This document shows, piece by piece, positions 2,133-60,405 of a stretch of DNA of 64,000 bases; the stretch's first letter is position 1; each line of letters opens with the position of its first letter. The notes beneath the pieces are model-generated. The model worked only from the letters and a program-made list of their open reading frames with translations. It was not told the origin of the DNA and did no database searches. The position numbers and the translations under genes were made by a program. This DNA comes from Escherichia coli (GTDB taxonomy: Bacteria; Pseudomonadota; Gammaproteobacteria; Enterobacterales; Enterobacteriaceae): NCBI RefSeq assembly GCF_050920415.1, contig NZ_CP169309.1. One strand, given 5' to 3'.

Positions 2133-2432
2133 ATGGCGCTTACAAAAGCTGAAATGTCAGAATATCTGTTTGATAAGCTTGGGCTTAGCAAGCGGGATGC
2201 CAAAGAACTGGTTGAACTGTTTTTCGAAGAGATCCGTCGAGCTCTGGAAAACGGCGAACAGGTGAAACTCTCTGGTTTTGGTAACTTCGATCTGCGTGAT
2301 AAGAATCAACGCCCGGGACGTAACCCGAAAACGGGCGAGGATATTCCCATTACAGCACGGCGCGTGGTGACCTTCAGACCCGGGCAGAAGTTAAAAAGCC
2401 GGGTCGAAAACGCTTCGCCCAAAGACGAGTAA
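2133..2432 (+). CDS. ihfA: Integration host factor alpha subunit
   Basis: 99 aa, ATG at 2133, N-terminus [17 protein letters not shown] matches IhfA; hairpin terminator downstream. Confidence 0.97.
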
Positions 2433-2446
2433 TCTGATCTAACTAA

Positions 2447-2475
2447 AAAGGCCGCTCTGCGGCCTTTTTTCTTTT
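2447..2475 (+). terminator. Rho-independent terminator after ihfA
   Basis: GC stem ggccgctctgcggcc followed by T-tract tttttctttt. Confidence 0.7.
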
Positions 2476-2532
2476 CACTGTCGAAGAGTCACCGTAAAAT
2501 CAACGCCATGACACTTCAGCAGAACGGATACC

Positions 2533-4874: not shown

Positions 4875-4951
4875 ATTCATGAGTATCTTGAAAATCGGGT
4901 AATTACGACGCTAAATTAATGCAAGAATAAAAAACAGAGGAACCGTACGGA

Positions 4952-5416
4952 ATGCGTTTCTGCCTTATTTTGATCACAGCACTGTTTCTGGCCGGGTGCA
5001 GCCATCATAAAGCTCCGCCGCCAAATGCCAGACTTTCTGACTCGATTACCGTTATTGCCGGGTTGAACGACCAGCTACAAAGCTGGCATGGCACACCGTA
5101 TCGTTATGGTGGTATGACGCGCCGCGGTGTGGACTGTTCGGGGTTTGTGGTTGTGACGATGCGCGATCGTTTCGATTTGCAGCTGCCCCGTGAAACCAAA
5201 CAACAAGCCTCTATCGGCACGCAAATTGATAAAGACGAGTTGCTGCCTGGTGACCTGGTCTTTTTCAAAACGGGTTCTGGACAAAATGGTTTGCATGTAG
5301 GTATTTACGATACCAACAACCAATTTATCCACGCCTCTACCAGCAAGGGAGTGATGCGTTCCTCTCTTGATAATGTCTATTGGCAGAAAAATTTCTGGCA
5401 GGCGAGACGAATCTAG
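4952..5416 (+). CDS. nlpC: NlpC/P60 family lipoprotein peptidase (MepS paralogue)
   Basis: 154 aa, lipoprotein signal with lipobox LAGC, NlpC/P60 Cys (DCSGF) present. Confidence 0.9.
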   Translation: MRFCLILITALFLAGCSHHKAPPPNARLSDSITVIAGLNDQLQSWHGTPYRYGGMTRRGVDCSGFVVVTMRDRFDLQLPRETKQQASIGTQIDKDELLPGDLVFFKTGSGQNGLHVGIYDTNNQFIHASTSKGVMRSSLDNVYWQKNFWQARRI

Positions 5417-5427
5417 TATGTCGAAAA

Positions 5428-5460
5428 ATGGACGGCGATGATACATCGCCGTCCATTTAC
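5428..5460 (+). terminator. Hairpin terminator after nlpC
   Basis: Inverted repeat atggacggcgatg...catcgccgtccat directly after the nlpC stop. Confidence 0.6.
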
Positions 5461-5662
5461 TCCTGAATACAGTAGTATTTTGCAGACAAAAATTCCGTAA
5501 ATGGATTATTCGTTTATAATCAGGATAATCTAAAAAAAGGACCCCTGAAAAAGTGGTTAACATGGAACAAATGAAAGTTACTCCTTCTGTAATTGTTATG
5601 TCTTATGGCCTCATCCCTTTTAGCCGGATACTGAAAAACATCCTTCGAGAGGGACGGTTACC

Positions 5663-6376
5663 ATGAAGATTTTTTTGGAGAATCTTTATCATTCTGATTG
5701 CTATTTCCTGCCGATAAGAGATAACCAGCAAAACCTTGTCGGCGTTGAGTTAATTACCCATTTCTCCAGTGAAGATGGTACGGTTCGTATACCGACGAGT
5801 CGGGTTATAGCGCAACTTACCGAGGAGCAACATTGGCAATTATTTTCTGAGCAGTTGGAATTGCTAAAATCATGCCAACACTTTTTTATTCAACATAAAC
5901 TCTTTGCCTGGCTTAATTTAACCCCACAAGTGGCTACTTTATTATTAGACAGGGATAATTACGCGGGCGAACTATTAAAATATCCGTTTATTGAACTGTT
6001 GATTAATGAGAATTACCCGCATCTCGATGAAGGAAAAGATAATCGCGATCTTTTGTCCTTATCGCAAATGTATCCCCTTGTGTTAGGTAATTTGGGCGCA
6101 GGCAATAGCACAATGAAAGCGGTTTTTGATGGTCTTTTCACCCGCGTCATGCTGGATAAAAGTTTTATTCAGCAACAAATCACGCATCGCTCCTTCGAAC
6201 CGTTTATTCGTGCGATCCAGGCGCAAATTTCCCCATGTTGCAATTGCATCATCGCGGGGGGCATTGATACGCCAGAAATAATGGCACAGATTACCCCCTT
6301 TGATTTCCATGCTCTCCAGGGATGCCTGTGGCCTGCCGTTCCTGTAAATCAGATAACGACGTTGGTTCAGCGATAA
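5663..6376 (+). CDS. ydiV: Degenerate EAL-domain protein, anti-FlhD4C2 factor
   Basis: 237 aa, N-terminus MKIFLENLYHSDCYFLPIRDNQQ matches YdiV; the EAL motif position reads ELI. Confidence 0.9.
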   Translation: MKIFLENLYHSDCYFLPIRDNQQNLVGVELITHFSSEDGTVRIPTSRVIAQLTEEQHWQLFSEQLELLKSCQHFFIQHKLFAWLNLTPQVATLLLDRDNYAGELLKYPFIELLINENYPHLDEGKDNRDLLSLSQMYPLVLGNLGAGNSTMKAVFDGLFTRVMLDKSFIQQQITHRSFEPFIRAIQAQISPCCNCIIAGGIDTPEIMAQITPFDFHALQGCLWPAVPVNQITTLVQR

Positions 6377-6399
6377 CCCTCCTGTTTGCTGGTGTTTAA

Positions 6400-7875
<1,476 letters not shown>

Positions 7876-8070: not shown

Positions 8071-8201
8071 AAAAATTAATAATAATTGATATAACAATGA
8101 TTCTTATTATCAATATTCTGGCGGGCCAGAGCAAGCAGTAATTTGTTGAGAAGACAACAAGTTGCGCAGAAATGCCCATTCCGTCAGGAATGGGCACGCA
8201 T

Positions 8202-27068: not shown

Positions 27069-27206
27069 CGTGTAATGGCTGCATGAAATAAACAATAAAA
27101 TATAAATAACATTATCAGCCTGCCGACGGCTTGAAGAGAGTCACAGTATCTTGTGCAACATTATTGGAAAGAGTGAGGGGGCGAGGTAGCGAAGCGGAAA
27201 AATGTT

Positions 27207-27312
27207 AAAAAAAAGCCCATCGTGGGAGATGGGCAAAGACTACACACAGCAATTCGTTGTTTCACTCAGGGGATTTCCATGCTTATAAATCAATATGTTG
27301 ATTTATAACCGT
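27207..27312 (-). ncRNA. rprA: RprA small regulatory RNA (Hfq-dependent activator of rpoS translation)
   Basis: Reverse complement reads ACGGTTATAAATCAACATATTGATTTATAAGCATGGAAATCCCCTGAGTGAAACAACGAATTGCTGTGTGTAGTCTTTGCCCATCTCCCACGATGGGCTTTTTTTT, recognised as RprA with its intrinsic terminator. Confidence 0.88.
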
Positions 27313-32750: not shown

Positions 32751-32949
32751 TCCTGACGTAATGCCGCGAGTTCGCCAAATCGGCCTGGATTAATCTTCGT
32801 CCAGGTTCGAGGGCCTTCTTAATACTGCTTTTCTACCCGCCTGATAACGTTCAAAAATAATACAAATCGCAGTTTGTGCTAAAACAGCGGCTTAGCTTTA
32901 TGAGACTATTCTTATCGCCCCTTCAAGAGCTAAGCCACTGTGAGTGCCG

Positions 32950-33017
32950 GAGATAAGCGCCGGATGGGGTAGAAACCCTTAAGCCTGTGATGCACAGACT
33001 TAAGGGTTTTCTTATTT
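32950..33017 (+). ncRNA. rydB: Candidate RydB sRNA (boundaries approximate)
   Basis: Strong hairpin aacccttaagcctgtg...cacagacttaagggtt plus T-tract in the ydiH-sufA spacer, where rydB is expected; the RydB sequence itself was not recalled. Confidence 0.4.
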
Positions 33018-33233: not shown

Positions 33234-33252
33234 TGAACTGATAATCATTATC
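33234..33252 (+). promoter_or_regulatory. Fur box in the sufA promoter
   Basis: gaactgataatcattatca matches the Fur consensus (GATAATGATAATCATTATC), about 50 bp upstream of the sufA ATG. Confidence 0.7.
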
Positions 33253-33298
33253 ACTAACATGCTGTTATACGCTGAAAGCGATGAAGTGAGGTAAATCG

Positions 33299-50691: not shown

Positions 50692-50997
50692 TCAGGCGAG
50701 TTTTGCCTGATTGATTTGACTCAGTGGCTCATTGACATCGAAAACTTTGGCGACAACTTCCTCAACGCCGAGATTTTTCAGTCGGGCAGTATGTTTTTCC
50801 AGATAGGCAAGGGCGCTTTTTTCATCAGTGAAAAGGTAGATCCCACCGGCTTCGTGGTTCTTTTCACTTTCTGTCCATACCTTCCACAGAAAACCAGGTT
50901 CCTGATTAATTGACTCAGCAAGCGGTTTAAGCTGCTCAGCCATTGCGTCGCCAAATGGGCCATTAAAAGCAAAATGAAGTTGTAACAAAGTTGCCAT
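50692..50997 (-). CDS. ydhR: Small dimeric alpha/beta-barrel (putative monooxygenase) protein YdhR
   Basis: 101 aa, ATG 50997, [16 protein letters not shown]. Confidence 0.85.
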
Positions 50998-51104
50998 AGC
51001 GATTCTCCTTCTGATAACGCATACGAAGACAGTGTAAATCTTTTAACGTATTGGATACAGAGAAGAAACAGAGGGAAAAAGGAGAAGACCAGATTAAGAA
51101 AATC

Positions 51105-51181
51105 TGGTGCGTCCGAGTGGACTCGAACCACCGACCCCCACCATGTCAAGGTGGTGCTCTAACCAACTGAGCTACGGACGC
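51105..51181 (-). tRNA. valW: tRNA-Val (anticodon GAC), downstream copy
   Basis: Reverse complement GCGTCCGTAGCTCAGTTGGTTAGAGCACCACCTTGACATGGTGGGGGTCGGTGGTTCGAGTCCACTCGGACGCACCA folds as tRNA with anticodon GAC and encoded CCA; valV/valW names assigned by position only. Confidence 0.95.
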
Positions 51182-51185
51182 AGGA

Positions 51186-51262
51186 TGGTGCGTTCAATTG
51201 GACTCGAACCAACGACCCCCACCATGTCAAGGTGGTGCTCTAACCAACTGAGCTATGAACGC
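51186..51262 (-). tRNA. valV: tRNA-Val (anticodon GAC), upstream copy
   Basis: Reverse complement GCGTTCATAGCTCAGTTGGTTAGAGCACCACCTTGACATGGTGGGGGTCGTTGGTTCGAGTCCAATTGAACGCACCA; 4-nt spacer to the second copy. Confidence 0.95.
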
Positions 51263-59852: not shown

Positions 59853-59896
59853 TCCATTTCACTCCAGACCCTAACTTCAGCTCCTGCAAAATCGCA

Positions 59897-59912
59897 AGGT
59901 AAACGTTTGCCT
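59897..59912 (-). promoter_or_regulatory. PUR box (PurR operator O1) in the purR leader
   Basis: Minus-strand GGCAAACGTTTACC, palindromic pur box core about 50 bp upstream of the purR ATG. Confidence 0.55.
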
Positions 59913-60150
59913 TTACACACCTTACGCACAACAAAAATGTTGCGGTACGCCGGAAAAACGACACGGAGCGTCAGGAAGGGGTCAATGGCCAGTACGCAAA
60001 TAGTGTAAGCGTGGAATTTTGGCCGATCTTGACGAAAAGGGGAAGTGGTAAAAACACTTATCATTATAAATGACGGGAGATTTTTTCATCACAGTGTGTA
60101 AAAATGCGTAATATCACTTTTTGTGTGGTAATAAAAAAGGAGAAAACTTG

Positions 60151-60240
60151 ATGAGCACCGACCTTAAATTTTCACTGGTAACAACAATTATCGTCCTCGG
60201 TTTGATCGTGGCCGTGGGTTTGACTGCCGCGCTGCACTGA
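60151..60240 (+). CDS. ynhF: Small membrane protein YnhF (29 aa)
   Basis: ATG at 60151 encodes MSTDLKFSLVTTIIVLGLIVAVGLTAALH, a single transmembrane helix, with RBS aggaga upstream; not in the ORF track because it is under 60 aa. Confidence 0.6.
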   Translation: MSTDLKFSLVTTIIVLGLIVAVGLTAALH

Positions 60241-60405
60241 TTTCCTCTCGAGGGAGCGCGTTCTCCCTCGCATCTCCTTCCTGTTTGTTAGCAAAATGGC
60301 AAAAGTGTTTTCTCTTTTTGTTATTTTCATTTTTTTGTGATTGCTGTCATGCTTTCGCCACTTTAATGAATATCGCGTAATGACGCGAAGAGGTGGAGAT
60401 AAGGC

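What the first reader, a model, noticed from the sequence alone, without database searches (positions are those of the whole stretch)
5663..6376. YdiV is an EAL-domain-like protein with a degenerate active-site motif
At the position where an EAL phosphodiesterase carries its signature, YdiV reads VGVELITHF (ELI instead of EAL). This is consistent with a catalytically inactive c-di-GMP-independent protein that acts by protein-protein interaction (anti-FlhD4C2).
Basis: partly seen in the sequence, partly recalled or inferred. Interest (0 to 1): 0.25.

Follow-up and report, generated by a model that had tools for sequence, protein, structure and literature searches.

The report
YdiV: known inactive EAL-like flagellar repressor
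This gene is the well-studied E. coli protein YdiV (RflP), a dead relative of c-di-GMP-degrading enzymes that switches off flagella by binding the master regulator FlhD4C2, so the finding is correct but ordinary; a conserved small upstream reading frame that overlaps its start codon appears unreported in the literature I could search.

Summary
Window 5663..6376 (+) is an intact 237-aa ORF, and residues 26-34 read VGVELITHF. The protein is 97% identical to E. coli K-12 YdiV/RflP (PDB 3TLQ, 4ES4). RefSeq annotates it as "anti-FlhDC factor".

The interpretation (catalytically dead, c-di-GMP-independent, acts by binding FlhD) is supported, and it is already published. One caveat: "ELI" is not the inactivating change. 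It keeps the catalytic Glu (E29), and the active E. coli enzymes PdeH and PdeL read ELL and EVL. The real losses are:
- ExLxR Arg → H33
- DDFGTG → GNLGAG
- KxD Lys → M163
- EGVE → GGID

Among 26 YdiV orthologues the former catalytic positions drift; even E29 becomes D, T or S. The FlhD-contact residues F155, F168 and F181 are invariant. Novelty: already known.

A side lead may be new. A 31-codon upstream ORF (5571..5666) ends in a TGA that overlaps the ydiV ATG (ATGA). A uORF of at least 25 codons with such an overlap is present in 54 of 67 species-level loci from about 17 enterobacterial genera. It shows little peptide constraint. This suggests translational coupling, which could underlie the reported but unexplained translational attenuation of ydiV. 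I found no paper linking ydiV to a uORF.

The parts
5663..6376 (+). ydiV (rflP) coding sequence, 237 aa, intact; stand-alone degenerate EAL-like domain, anti-FlhD4C2 factor
   Evidence: ORF. 97% identical to K-12 RflP and to PDB 3TLQ/4ES4. RefSeq annotation 'anti-FlhDC factor'. Pfam EAL 34.6 bits against a 31.3 cut-off. pN/pS against K-12 = 0.15.
5738..5764 (+). VGVELITHF (aa 26-34): equivalent of the EALxR signature. E29 (5747-5749) is retained, A->L30, L->I31, and the Arg of ExLxR ->H33
   Evidence: Sequence; alignment A1. Within the YdiV family E29 is E in 21, D in 2, T in 2 and S in 1 of 26 sequences; H33 is variable.
5915..5917 (+). N85: aligns with the conserved metal-site Asn of active EAL domains (alignment-dependent)
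   Evidence: A1. Spurbeck 2012 Table 1 places a gap here. Variable in orthologues: N 18, Y 5, K/I/T 1 each.
6008..6010 (+). E116: equivalent of the Glu of the 'ELTE' motif, retained
   Evidence: A1; E in 24 of 26 orthologues.
6086..6103 (+). GNLGAG (aa 142-147): degenerate equivalent of the DDFGTG loop-6 motif; both Asp lost (G142, N143)
   Evidence: A1; G142 is variable and N143 is N in 25 of 26 orthologues.
6149..6157 (+). M163-L164-D165: equivalent of the K-x-D motif; catalytic Lys lost (Met), Asp kept
   Evidence: A1; position 163 is highly variable (M/V/A/I/R/F) and D165 is invariant.
6257..6268 (+). G199-G200-I201-D202: equivalent of EGVE; first Glu lost (Gly), second Glu -> Asp
   Evidence: A1; position 199 is variable and D202 is D in 25 of 26 orthologues.
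6317..6322 (+). Q219-G220: retained 'QG' motif
   Evidence: A1; Q in 25 of 26 orthologues.
6116..6241 (+). aa 152-193: FlhD-binding surface, including helix alpha8 (aa 176-192) and contact residues F155, F168, F181 and A184. All are present, and aa 137-203 are identical to K-12
   Evidence: Interface from Li 2012. Identity to K-12 in this stretch. F155/F168/F181 are invariant and A184 is 25 of 26 in orthologues; aa 141-160 is the most conserved 20-residue block.
5571..5666 (+). Upstream ORF (side lead): 31 codons, MKVTPSVIVMSYGLIPFSRILKNILREGRLP*. Its TGA (5664-5666) overlaps the ydiV ATG (5663-5665) as ATGA. There is an alternative in-frame ATG at 5562 and a GTG at 5553. An SD-like GGAA lies at 5564-5567
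   Evidence: A uORF of at least 25 codons with an overlapping stop occurs in 54 of 67 species-level loci; 41 of these plus the window have exactly 31 codons. Not annotated in K-12 or in the matching genome. Translation has not been shown.
5515..5528 (+). Conserved TATAAT (5515-5520) plus CAGGATAA (5521-5528) block, about 50 nt upstream of the uORF; a probable -10 element or operator of a ydiV-proximal promoter (inferred)
   Evidence: Most conserved block of the intergenic alignment (A5). TATAAT or TACAAT and/or CAGGATAA occur at -138 to -149 in most loci. The simple promoter scan did not call it because the -35 is poor. Laganenka 2020 used -253..+90 as the rflP promoter fragment.
5417..5662 (+). 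nlpC-ydiV intergenic region (246 nt, GC 0.38), unusually conserved within E. coli
   Evidence: 0 of 246 differences from K-12, although the flanking genes differ at pS 0.10-0.13. At least 99% identical in 4347 of 5418 genomes, against 371 of 5419 for the CDS.

Best explanation
The ORF encodes YdiV (RflP), a stand-alone EAL-fold protein that has lost the c-di-GMP phosphodiesterase active site. It acts as a stoichiometric protein inhibitor. It binds the FlhD subunits of the flagellar master activator FlhD4C2, mainly through helix alpha8 and neighbouring helices. At high occupancy it opens the FlhD4C2 ring so that the complex can no longer bind class II flagellar promoters. In Salmonella it also hands the complex to ClpXP. 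The result is repression of flagellum synthesis and motility, independent of c-di-GMP.

Shown here: identity to the characterised protein; loss of 6 of 10 canonical catalytic or ligand residues; retention and family-wide invariance of the FlhD-contact residues; purifying selection on the gene. Taken from the literature: FlhD binding, the absence of c-di-GMP binding or hydrolysis, and the concentration-dependent mechanism. Inferred: that this particular allele, which has 8 substitutions all outside the interface, behaves the same way.
For: The protein is 229/237 identical to K-12 RflP and to the crystallised YdiV, 3TLQ and 4ES4. None of the 8 substitutions (positions 24, 97, 122, 128, 136, 204, 207, 228) falls in the FlhD interface, aa 152-193.

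Alignment with active PdeH, PdeL, DosP and PdeR (A1) shows E29, N85, E116 and Q219 kept. It shows Arg->H33, Asp-Asp->G142/N143, Lys->M163, Glu->G199 and Glu->D202 changed. Pfam EAL scores only 34.6 bits, against 111.7 for PdeH and 207.4 for PdeL.

Across 26 orthologues, the catalytic-equivalent positions 29, 33, 85, 142, 163 and 199 vary (entropy 1.0-2.2 bits). F155, F168 and F181 are invariant and A184 is 25 of 26. Synteny btuD-nlpC-ydiV-selO matches K-12. pN/pS against K-12 is 0.15.

Literature: Li 2012, PMC3510510: no c-di-GMP binding or activity, 8 of 10 catalytic residues lost, a YdiV2-FlhD2 structure, and interface mutants that lose motility repression. Spurbeck 2012, PMC3484386: the motility phenotype of delta-ydiV in CFT073 is not complemented by an active PDE. 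Laganenka 2020, PMC7157525: RflP represses flagellar genes in pathogenic E. coli.
Against: Nothing here contradicts it. Three limits apply. No biochemical assay exists for this exact allele. The direct c-di-GMP binding and hydrolysis tests cited by Li 2012 were done on the Salmonella orthologue, which is 53% identical. The count of lost residues depends on the alignment: 6 of 10 in mine, 8 of 10 published. Several former active-site residues (E111, E116, N143, D165, D202, Q219) remain strongly conserved in the YdiV family, so the pocket is not simply decaying. In K-12 the protein is barely translated, and this window has the identical 5' region, so activity in this strain may be conditional.
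Confidence: 0.93

Rival explanations
1. YdiV keeps a weak c-di-GMP phosphodiesterase or c-di-GMP-binding function, because the Glu of the signature, the Asn, one Glu and the Gln are still present. On this view it affects motility partly through the c-di-GMP pool.
For: E29, N85, E116, D165 and Q219 align with metal or ligand residues of active enzymes. In CFT073 the adherence phenotype of delta-ydiV was complemented by an active PDE, which the authors read as an indirect effect on c-di-GMP.
Against: Both Asp of DDFGTG, the catalytic Lys, the general-base Glu of EGVE and the Arg of ExLxR are gone. E29 and N85 are themselves not conserved among orthologues. The literature reports no binding and no hydrolysis. 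The motility phenotype is not complemented by a PDE.
Confidence: 0.03
2. The vestigial active-site groove is a sensor pocket for another small molecule, and that ligand tunes FlhD binding. The domain would then be a ligand-regulated inhibitor and not a constitutive one.
For: Li 2012 saw phosphate and glycerol in the retained groove and proposed that another ligand may bind there. In my orthologue alignment several groove-lining former catalytic positions stay nearly invariant (E111, E116, N143, D165, D202, Q219, F34), although catalysis is lost.
Against: No ligand has been identified. These residues may be conserved for folding of the barrel. FlhD binding and inhibition work in vitro without an added ligand.
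Confidence: 0.15
3. In this strain the gene is essentially silent, as in K-12, and its main physiological role lies elsewhere. An example is converting Fur into a form that does not bind DNA, together with SlyD, during iron starvation.
For: The 246-nt upstream region plus the first 38 nt of the CDS are identical to K-12, where translation is attenuated. Zhang 2020, PMC7515728, reports the YdiV-SlyD-Fur axis and 3- to 23-fold induction of ydiV mRNA by iron limitation.
Against: The FlhD-contact residues are the most conserved part of the protein. CFT073, whose leader differs from K-12 by only 1 bp, expresses functional YdiV. The Fur role is described as additional to FlhDC inhibition, not as a replacement for it. 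No convincing Fur box lies upstream of ydiV.
Confidence: 0.12

Closest known systems
E. coli K-12 YdiV / RflP (b1707; PDB 3TLQ, 4ES4), anti-FlhD4C2 factor
   Same: 229/237 residues identical. Same length, same genomic context (nlpC-ydiV-selO), identical FlhD interface, and identical upstream region.
   Different: Eight substitutions outside the interface (K-12 -> window: V24N, E97D, N122D, G128D, V136M, A204P, L207M, I228V). This is an allelic variant only.
Salmonella Typhimurium YdiV / STM1344 / CdgR / RflP
   Same: Orthologue in the same synteny. It has the degenerate EAL-like domain and the same anti-FlhD4C2 function in the literature. It also has a uORF overlapping its start codon (TAATG).
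   Different: Only 53% identical; its signature reads EII. It is well expressed and nutrient-regulated, whereas E. coli K-12 translates ydiV poorly.
Salmonella STM1697 (PDB 5HXG), second EAL-like anti-FlhD4C2 factor
   Same: Stand-alone degenerate EAL-like fold that binds FlhD. Detectable by sequence (E = 2e-21; GVEIITHF motif).
   Different: A paralogue, not an orthologue. According to PMC5622320 it blocks RNA-polymerase recruitment and not DNA binding.
Active stand-alone EAL phosphodiesterase PdeH (YhjH) and PdeL (YahA) of E. coli
   Same: Same Pfam domain and fold, and a similar size for PdeH. The signature also departs from E-A-L (ELL, EVL).
   Different: PdeH and PdeL keep the DDFGTG, KxD, EGVE and QG catalytic set and score 112 and 207 bits against Pfam EAL. 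YdiV lacks these residues and scores 34.6 bits. Their effect on motility is opposite.
Other degenerate EAL proteins acting by protein contacts (BluF/YcgF, CsrD, LapD, FimX)
   Same: An EAL fold recruited for non-catalytic regulation.
   Different: LapD and FimX still bind c-di-GMP. BluF carries a BLUF sensor and targets BluR. YdiV is a bare domain that targets FlhD.

Membership tests
EAL domain superfamily (Pfam PF00563, TIM-barrel-like fold) | Sequence match to the EAL profile above the curated threshold over most of the domain | tested here: met
   34.6 bits against a 31.3 cut-off, E = 1.6e-8, residues 13-222 on profile positions 15-232 of 236. The match is marginal: the E. fergusonii orthologue scores 30.6, below the cut-off.
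EAL domain superfamily (Pfam PF00563, TIM-barrel-like fold) | EAL-type (beta/alpha)8 barrel fold | tested here: met
   97% identical over the full length to the crystallised chains 3TLQ_A and 4ES4_A. The fold is described as a modified TIM-like barrel with the same topology as TBD1265 (Li 2012). I ran no structure prediction of my own.
Catalytically active EAL c-di-GMP phosphodiesterases | Glu of the EAL signature (metal ligand) | tested here: met
   E29 aligns with the Glu of ELL/EVL/EAL/EAL in PdeH, PdeL, DosP and PdeR.
Catalytically active EAL c-di-GMP phosphodiesterases | Arg of ExLxR (substrate phosphate contact) | tested here: not met
   H33. The active enzyme PdeH also lacks this Arg (ELLTV), so this feature alone is not decisive.
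Catalytically active EAL c-di-GMP phosphodiesterases | Conserved Asn and the Glu of 'ELTE' (metal site) | tested here: inconclusive
   N85 and E116 align in A1. The published alignment places a gap at the Asn (Spurbeck Table 1: E-LEGMGQ), and N85 varies among orthologues.
Catalytically active EAL c-di-GMP phosphodiesterases | Asp-Asp of the DDFGTG loop-6 motif | tested here: not met
   G142-N143 (GNLGAG).
Catalytically active EAL c-di-GMP phosphodiesterases | Catalytic Lys of KxD | tested here: not met
   M163; the position is hypervariable in orthologues.
Catalytically active EAL c-di-GMP phosphodiesterases | Glu residues of EGVE (general base / metal) | tested here: not met
   G199 and D202 (GGID).
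Catalytically active EAL c-di-GMP phosphodiesterases | c-di-GMP hydrolysis and binding | not testable with these tools
   The literature reports neither, citing assays on the Salmonella orthologue (Li 2012; PMC5622320).
YdiV/RflP anti-FlhD4C2 factors | Orthology to characterised YdiV (sequence identity and conserved synteny nlpC-ydiV-selO) | tested here: met
   97% identical to K-12 RflP. Same neighbours. The synteny is shared with Salmonella, E. fergusonii, Citrobacter, Yokenella and others.
YdiV/RflP anti-FlhD4C2 factors | FlhD-contact residues F155, F168, F181, A184 and helix alpha8 (aa 176-192) | tested here: met
   All are present. aa 137-203 are identical to the crystallised protein. These residues are invariant or nearly so in 26 orthologues.
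YdiV/RflP anti-FlhD4C2 factors | Physical binding to FlhD and inhibition of FlhD4C2 DNA binding / motility | not testable with these tools
   Shown for the K-12 protein (Li 2012) and genetically in CFT073 and other pathogenic E. coli.

The most novel reading that the evidence does not exclude
ydiV is preceded by a conserved leader ORF of 31 codons (window 5571..5666). It has its own SD-like GGA and an ATGAA start context, and its stop codon overlaps the ydiV start codon (ATGA). It is maintained across about 17 enterobacterial genera with little constraint on the peptide. The most novel reading is that YdiV synthesis is translationally coupled to, or gated by, translation of this leader. That would be the missing mechanism behind the long-reported post-transcriptional (translational) control of ydiV, which is attenuated in E. 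coli K-12 and nutrient-dependent in Salmonella. I found no paper linking ydiV to a uORF. The ORF is unannotated in K-12.
Probability: 0.45. Interest if true: 0.5.

Novelty: already known. Interest (0 to 1): 0.13.

Why it matters
The finding as given re-derives textbook knowledge. YdiV/RflP is a standard example of an enzyme fold recruited as a protein-protein inhibitor, and it links nutrition, iron and host entry to flagellar shut-off. Its value here is as a correct annotation, plus one lesson in method: the letters of the "EAL" motif are a poor indicator of activity, and the full catalytic set must be scored.

The side lead could matter more. Why ydiV mRNA is poorly translated in laboratory E. 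coli, while the protein is active in pathogenic strains and in Salmonella, is still unexplained. A conserved leader ORF whose stop overlaps the ydiV start gives a concrete hypothesis that can be tested cheaply.

Tried and rejected
1. Fur box in the conserved upstream block. ydiV mRNA is induced by iron limitation "by unknown mechanisms". However, the best match to the 19-mer Fur consensus in the intergenic region is 13/19, and 11-13/19 in ten other species. Such scores are common in the window background, whereas clear sites score 15-16/19 elsewhere. Rejected.

2. A conserved RNA structure occluding the ydiV SD, as postulated in the literature. MFE folds of -95..+25 in 11 species are no more stable than dinucleotide shuffles (z from -1.4 to +0.9). 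An SD-pairing hairpin is predicted in only some species. Not supported, not excluded.

3. Rfam gathering scan of the whole window. No RNA family lies in or near ydiV.

4. The consensus promoter/terminator scan of 4900-6600 gave counts no higher than shuffles. It did not call the conserved TATAAT because the -35 is poor.

5. Peptide-level selection on the uORF. There is no three-base periodicity in column entropy (1.34/1.28/1.35). The synonymous excess is modest: 0.28 in frame against 0.20 and 0.19 off frame. A functional peptide is therefore unlikely, though not excluded.

6. Literature searches for ydiV with uORF, leader peptide, ribosome profiling, and the peptide string itself found nothing relevant. 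Jonas 2010 (PMC2888478) on Csr control of STM1344, and Wada 2012 on ydiV expression in E. coli, are not held in the library. An earlier description there cannot be ruled out.

7. Structure prediction and fold search were not run. A crystal structure of a 97%-identical protein already exists.

Full report
**1. The observation**

The window carries an ATG-initiated ORF at exactly 5663..6376 on the + strand, 237 aa long. Residues 26-34 read VGVELITHF, and E29-L30-I31 are encoded by GAG-TTA-ATT at 5747-5755. The description is correct at the stated coordinates.

**2. Identity**

- The protein is 229/237 identical to E. coli K-12 RflP/YdiV and to the crystallised chains 3TLQ_A ("Regulatory protein YdiV") and 4ES4_A.
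- The DNA is 100% identical to E. coli strain MFDS1022581.
- The gene occurs in 5422 of 5426 complete E. coli genomes and is annotated "ydiV: anti-FlhDC factor". It lies between nlpC (window 4952..5416) and selO/ydiU (6439..7875). K-12 has the same arrangement.
- The exact protein sequence is already in public databases under that name.
- The eight substitutions relative to K-12 are at positions 24, 97, 122, 128, 136, 204, 207 and 228. All lie outside the FlhD interface.
- Against K-12 the gene shows pS = 0.105 and pN = 0.016, giving pN/pS = 0.15. It is under purifying selection and is not a pseudogene.

**3. The "proper alignment" test**

Pfam EAL (PF00563) matches residues 13-222 at only 34.6 bits, against a gathering cut-off of 31.3. 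For comparison:

| Protein | Pfam EAL score (bits) |
|---|---|
| PdeL (active) | 207.4 |
| PdeH (active) | 111.7 |
| Salmonella YdiV | 39.2 |
| YdiV, this window | 34.6 |
| K-12 YdiV | 33.2 |
| E. fergusonii YdiV | 30.6 (below cut-off) |

I aligned YdiV with four active E. coli EAL domains: PdeH, PdeL, DosP and PdeR (A1).

- Retained: E29 (Glu of the signature), N85, E116 (Glu of ELTE), D165 (Asp of KxD) and Q219 (QG).
- Lost: Arg of ExLxR → H33; Asp-Asp of DDFGTG → G142-N143; Lys of KxD → M163; first Glu of EGVE → G199; second Glu → D202.

So 6 of the 10 canonical residues are changed in my alignment. Li et al. 2012 give 8 of 10. Spurbeck et al. 2012, Table 1, list ydiV as EALxR = ELIH, c-di-GMP binding = FHND, catalysis = ND and Mg site = E-LEGMGQ. 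That agrees with my alignment except at the Asn, which depends on the alignment.

**4. A correction to the reasoning**

ELI is not the lesion. The only catalytic residue of the motif, the Glu, is kept. The active enzymes PdeH and PdeL carry ELL and EVL at the same columns (Spurbeck Table 1). Reading activity from the three letters alone would misclassify active enzymes.

**5. What the family conserves**

A database search found orthologues from 98% down to about 41% identity in Escherichia, Citrobacter, Salmonella, Intestinirhabdus, Yokenella and Buttiauxella. I aligned 26 full-length sequences (A2).

- The former catalytic positions drift. Position 29 is E in 21, D in 2, T in 2 and S in 1. 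Positions 33, 85, 142, 163 and 199 have entropies of 1.4-2.2 bits.
- The FlhD-contact residues named by Li 2012 are fixed. F155, F168 and F181 are invariant and A184 is 25 of 26.
- The most conserved 20-residue block is aa 141-160.
- Some groove-lining residues stay nearly invariant: E111, E116, N143, D165, D202 and Q219. This leaves room for a structural role or an (unidentified) ligand-binding role, as Li 2012 speculated from phosphate and glycerol in the groove.

**6. Mechanism**

The best-supported mechanism is the published one. YdiV binds FlhD subunits of FlhD4C2, with alpha8 (aa 176-192) as the main contact. One or two YdiV molecules per complex still allow DNA binding. The third and fourth wedge into the ring, open it, and abolish DNA binding, so inhibition needs high YdiV concentration. 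Interface mutants lose motility repression.

In uropathogenic CFT073, delta-ydiV increases motility and FliC, and an active PDE does not complement this. RflP also represses flagellar genes in other pathogenic E. coli. Additional reported roles are conversion of Fur, with SlyD, into a form that does not bind DNA during iron limitation, and, in Salmonella, delivery of FlhD4C2 to ClpXP (my own knowledge of Takaya et al. 2012, not checked here).

What is shown here and what is not:
- Shown by my analyses: identity, loss of the catalytic set, retention of the interface, and the selection pattern.
- From the literature: binding and the lack of activity.
- Inferred: that this allele behaves like the K-12 protein.

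**7. Novelty of the finding**

Already known in every respect, including the ELI(H) motif itself.

**8. Side lead followed outside the coordinates**

*Conservation of the upstream region.* The 246-nt nlpC-ydiV intergenic region (5417..5662) is identical to K-12, although the flanking genes differ at pS 0.10-0.13. Across E. coli it is at least 99% identical in 4347 of 5418 genomes. The ydiV CDS reaches that level in only 371 of 5419.

*The uORF in the window.* Inside this region is an ORF at 5571..5666, with alternative starts at 5562 and 5553. It has 31 codons, and its TGA overlaps the ydiV ATG as ATGA.

*First comparison, 11 loci.* The window plus 10 loci from six named genera and three unnamed lineages all keep this frame free of stops over -92..-6. 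The other two frames carry 18 and 29 stops. A GGA/GGG lies 5-8 nt before the conserved ATG at -92 (A5).

*Wider comparison, 67 species.* I then scanned one genome per species (68 loci, 67 usable, about 17 genera).
- 54 of 67 have an ATG-initiated uORF of at least 25 codons whose stop overlaps the ydiV start. Across all 67 loci, the stop in this frame lies at +1 (ATGA) in 55, at -2 (TAATG/TGATG) in 11 and at +4 in 1.
- 41 of them, plus the window, have exactly 31 codons.
- Five more keep a uORF with a shifted end or start: E. albertii, Kosakonia sacchari, Phytobacter and two Buttiauxella.
- Eight lack it: Siccibacter, Franconibacter, Pseudescherichia and some Enterobacter-like genomes.
- Stops over -92..-6 total 106, 20 and 173 in the ydiV frame, the uORF frame and the third frame.
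- Per-locus shuffles in the first 11 loci keep such a frame open with probability 0.11-0.27. With many deeply diverged lineages, chance or inertia is not a plausible explanation.

*Peptide constraint.* Among 20 representatives below 85% identity there is no codon periodicity in column entropy (1.34/1.28/1.35). The synonymous excess is modest (0.28 against 0.20 and 0.19 off frame). The start context ATGAA is invariant. The selected property thus seems to be that the frame is translated and ends on the ydiV start, not the peptide sequence.

*Interpretation.* This is the geometry of translational coupling or a regulatory leader ORF. It fits the reports that ydiV is controlled after transcription: "attenuated translation" in laboratory E. 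coli. Spurbeck et al. noted that the proposed 5'-UTR structure cannot alone explain this.

*Caveats.* I have no evidence that the uORF is translated. RNA folds of the leader are not significantly stable. The papers most likely to have examined the leader (Wada 2012; Jonas 2010) are not in the searchable library. Within that library no paper links ydiV to a uORF. The peptide is unnamed in the protein collection. It is unannotated in K-12.

*Other features of the leader.*
- A natural allele (P0002, 14 sequences) fuses the uORF in frame to ydiV through an indel.
- A conserved TATAAT/CAGGATAA block (5515-5528) about 50 nt upstream of the uORF is a likely promoter or operator element.
- It is not a convincing Fur box.
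- The leader holds six GGA motifs, against 2.0 expected (P about 0.005). This is an untested lead towards CsrA.

**9. Verdict**

- Observation: confirmed.
- Interpretation: supported, with the caveat that the ELI letters are not the evidence.
- Novelty: already known.
- Interest of the finding itself: low.
- The conserved start-overlapping uORF is the one item worth passing on.

Noticed in passing
window 5571..5666 (+) (alternative starts 5562, 5553): A 31-codon upstream ORF whose TGA overlaps the ydiV ATG (ATGA). A uORF of at least 25 codons with an overlapping stop is present in 54 of 67 species-level loci from about 17 enterobacterial genera. It has a conserved SD-like GGA and an ATGAA start, but little peptide constraint. 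It is unannotated in K-12, and no paper was found linking ydiV to a uORF.
   Followed up: yes
window 5417..5662: The nlpC-ydiV intergenic region is more conserved within E. coli than the ydiV coding sequence. It has 0 of 246 differences from K-12. It is at least 99% identical in 80% of 5418 genomes, against 7% for the CDS. Purifying selection on a regulatory leader or a recent sweep could each explain this; the question is unresolved.
   Followed up: partly
window 5515..5528: The TATAAT + CAGGATAA block is the most conserved intergenic element across genera (TACAAT in some). It is probably a -10 box or operator for a ydiV-proximal promoter. It is not a good Fur box.
   Followed up: partly
window 5521..5690: Six GGA motifs lie in the ydiV leader and start region, against 2.0 expected from shuffles (P about 0.005). 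Those at -99, -37/-30 and +14 recur in many species. This may indicate CsrA binding; untested.
   Followed up: partly
window 5428..5456: A perfect 13-bp inverted repeat with a 3-nt loop (ATGGACGGCGATG-ATA-CATCGCCGTCCAT) lies 12 nt after the nlpC stop. It is followed by only TTT, so the terminator scan did not call it. It could be a leaky nlpC terminator, which is relevant to the reported nlpC-ydiV co-transcription.
   Followed up: no
window 5663..6376 and flanks: ydiV (GC 0.42) and its upstream region (GC 0.38) are clearly more AT-rich than the neighbours (btuD 0.55, selO 0.52; window 0.50).
   Followed up: no
protein clusters P0002, P0005, P0011, P0019, P0026, P0044, P0049 (E. coli ydiV variants): Many E. 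coli sequences carry disrupted ydiV alleles. Examples are a frameshift after aa 200 (206 aa, 463 members), a disruption after aa 178 (204 aa, 242 members), N-terminally shortened calls, and one allele in which an indel fuses the uORF in frame to ydiV (274 aa, 14 members). The window allele is intact.
   Followed up: partly
L008 (E. fergusonii) and alignment A2: YdiV evolves fast. The E. fergusonii orthologue is only 49% identical to E. coli's, which is less than Salmonella's 53%. It has lost the signature Glu (LTVF) and falls below the Pfam EAL cut-off (30.6 bits).
   Followed up: yes
window 6439..7875 (selO/ydiU) next to ydiV: ydiV is followed, after 62 nt and with no predicted terminator, by selO/ydiU. 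The product of that gene is reported to UMPylate FlhDC (PMC9239255). The pairing ydiV-selO is conserved in all 10 comparison loci first examined, so two FlhDC antagonists are kept adjacent.
   Followed up: partly
window 8093..8117 and 33234..33258: These are the best matches to the Fur-box 19-mer in the window (15-16/19). The first lies just upstream of hemP (on the - strand). The second is near rydB (32917..32977), presumably the suf promoter region.
   Followed up: no
window 2374..2532, 27205..27312, 32917..32977, 50981..51262, 59853..60243: Rfam gathering-threshold hits: STnc540 (+), RprA (-), RydB (+), two tRNAs (-) overlapped by an HPnc0260 antisense match (+), and STnc550 (+). All are expected for this E. 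coli region.
   Followed up: no
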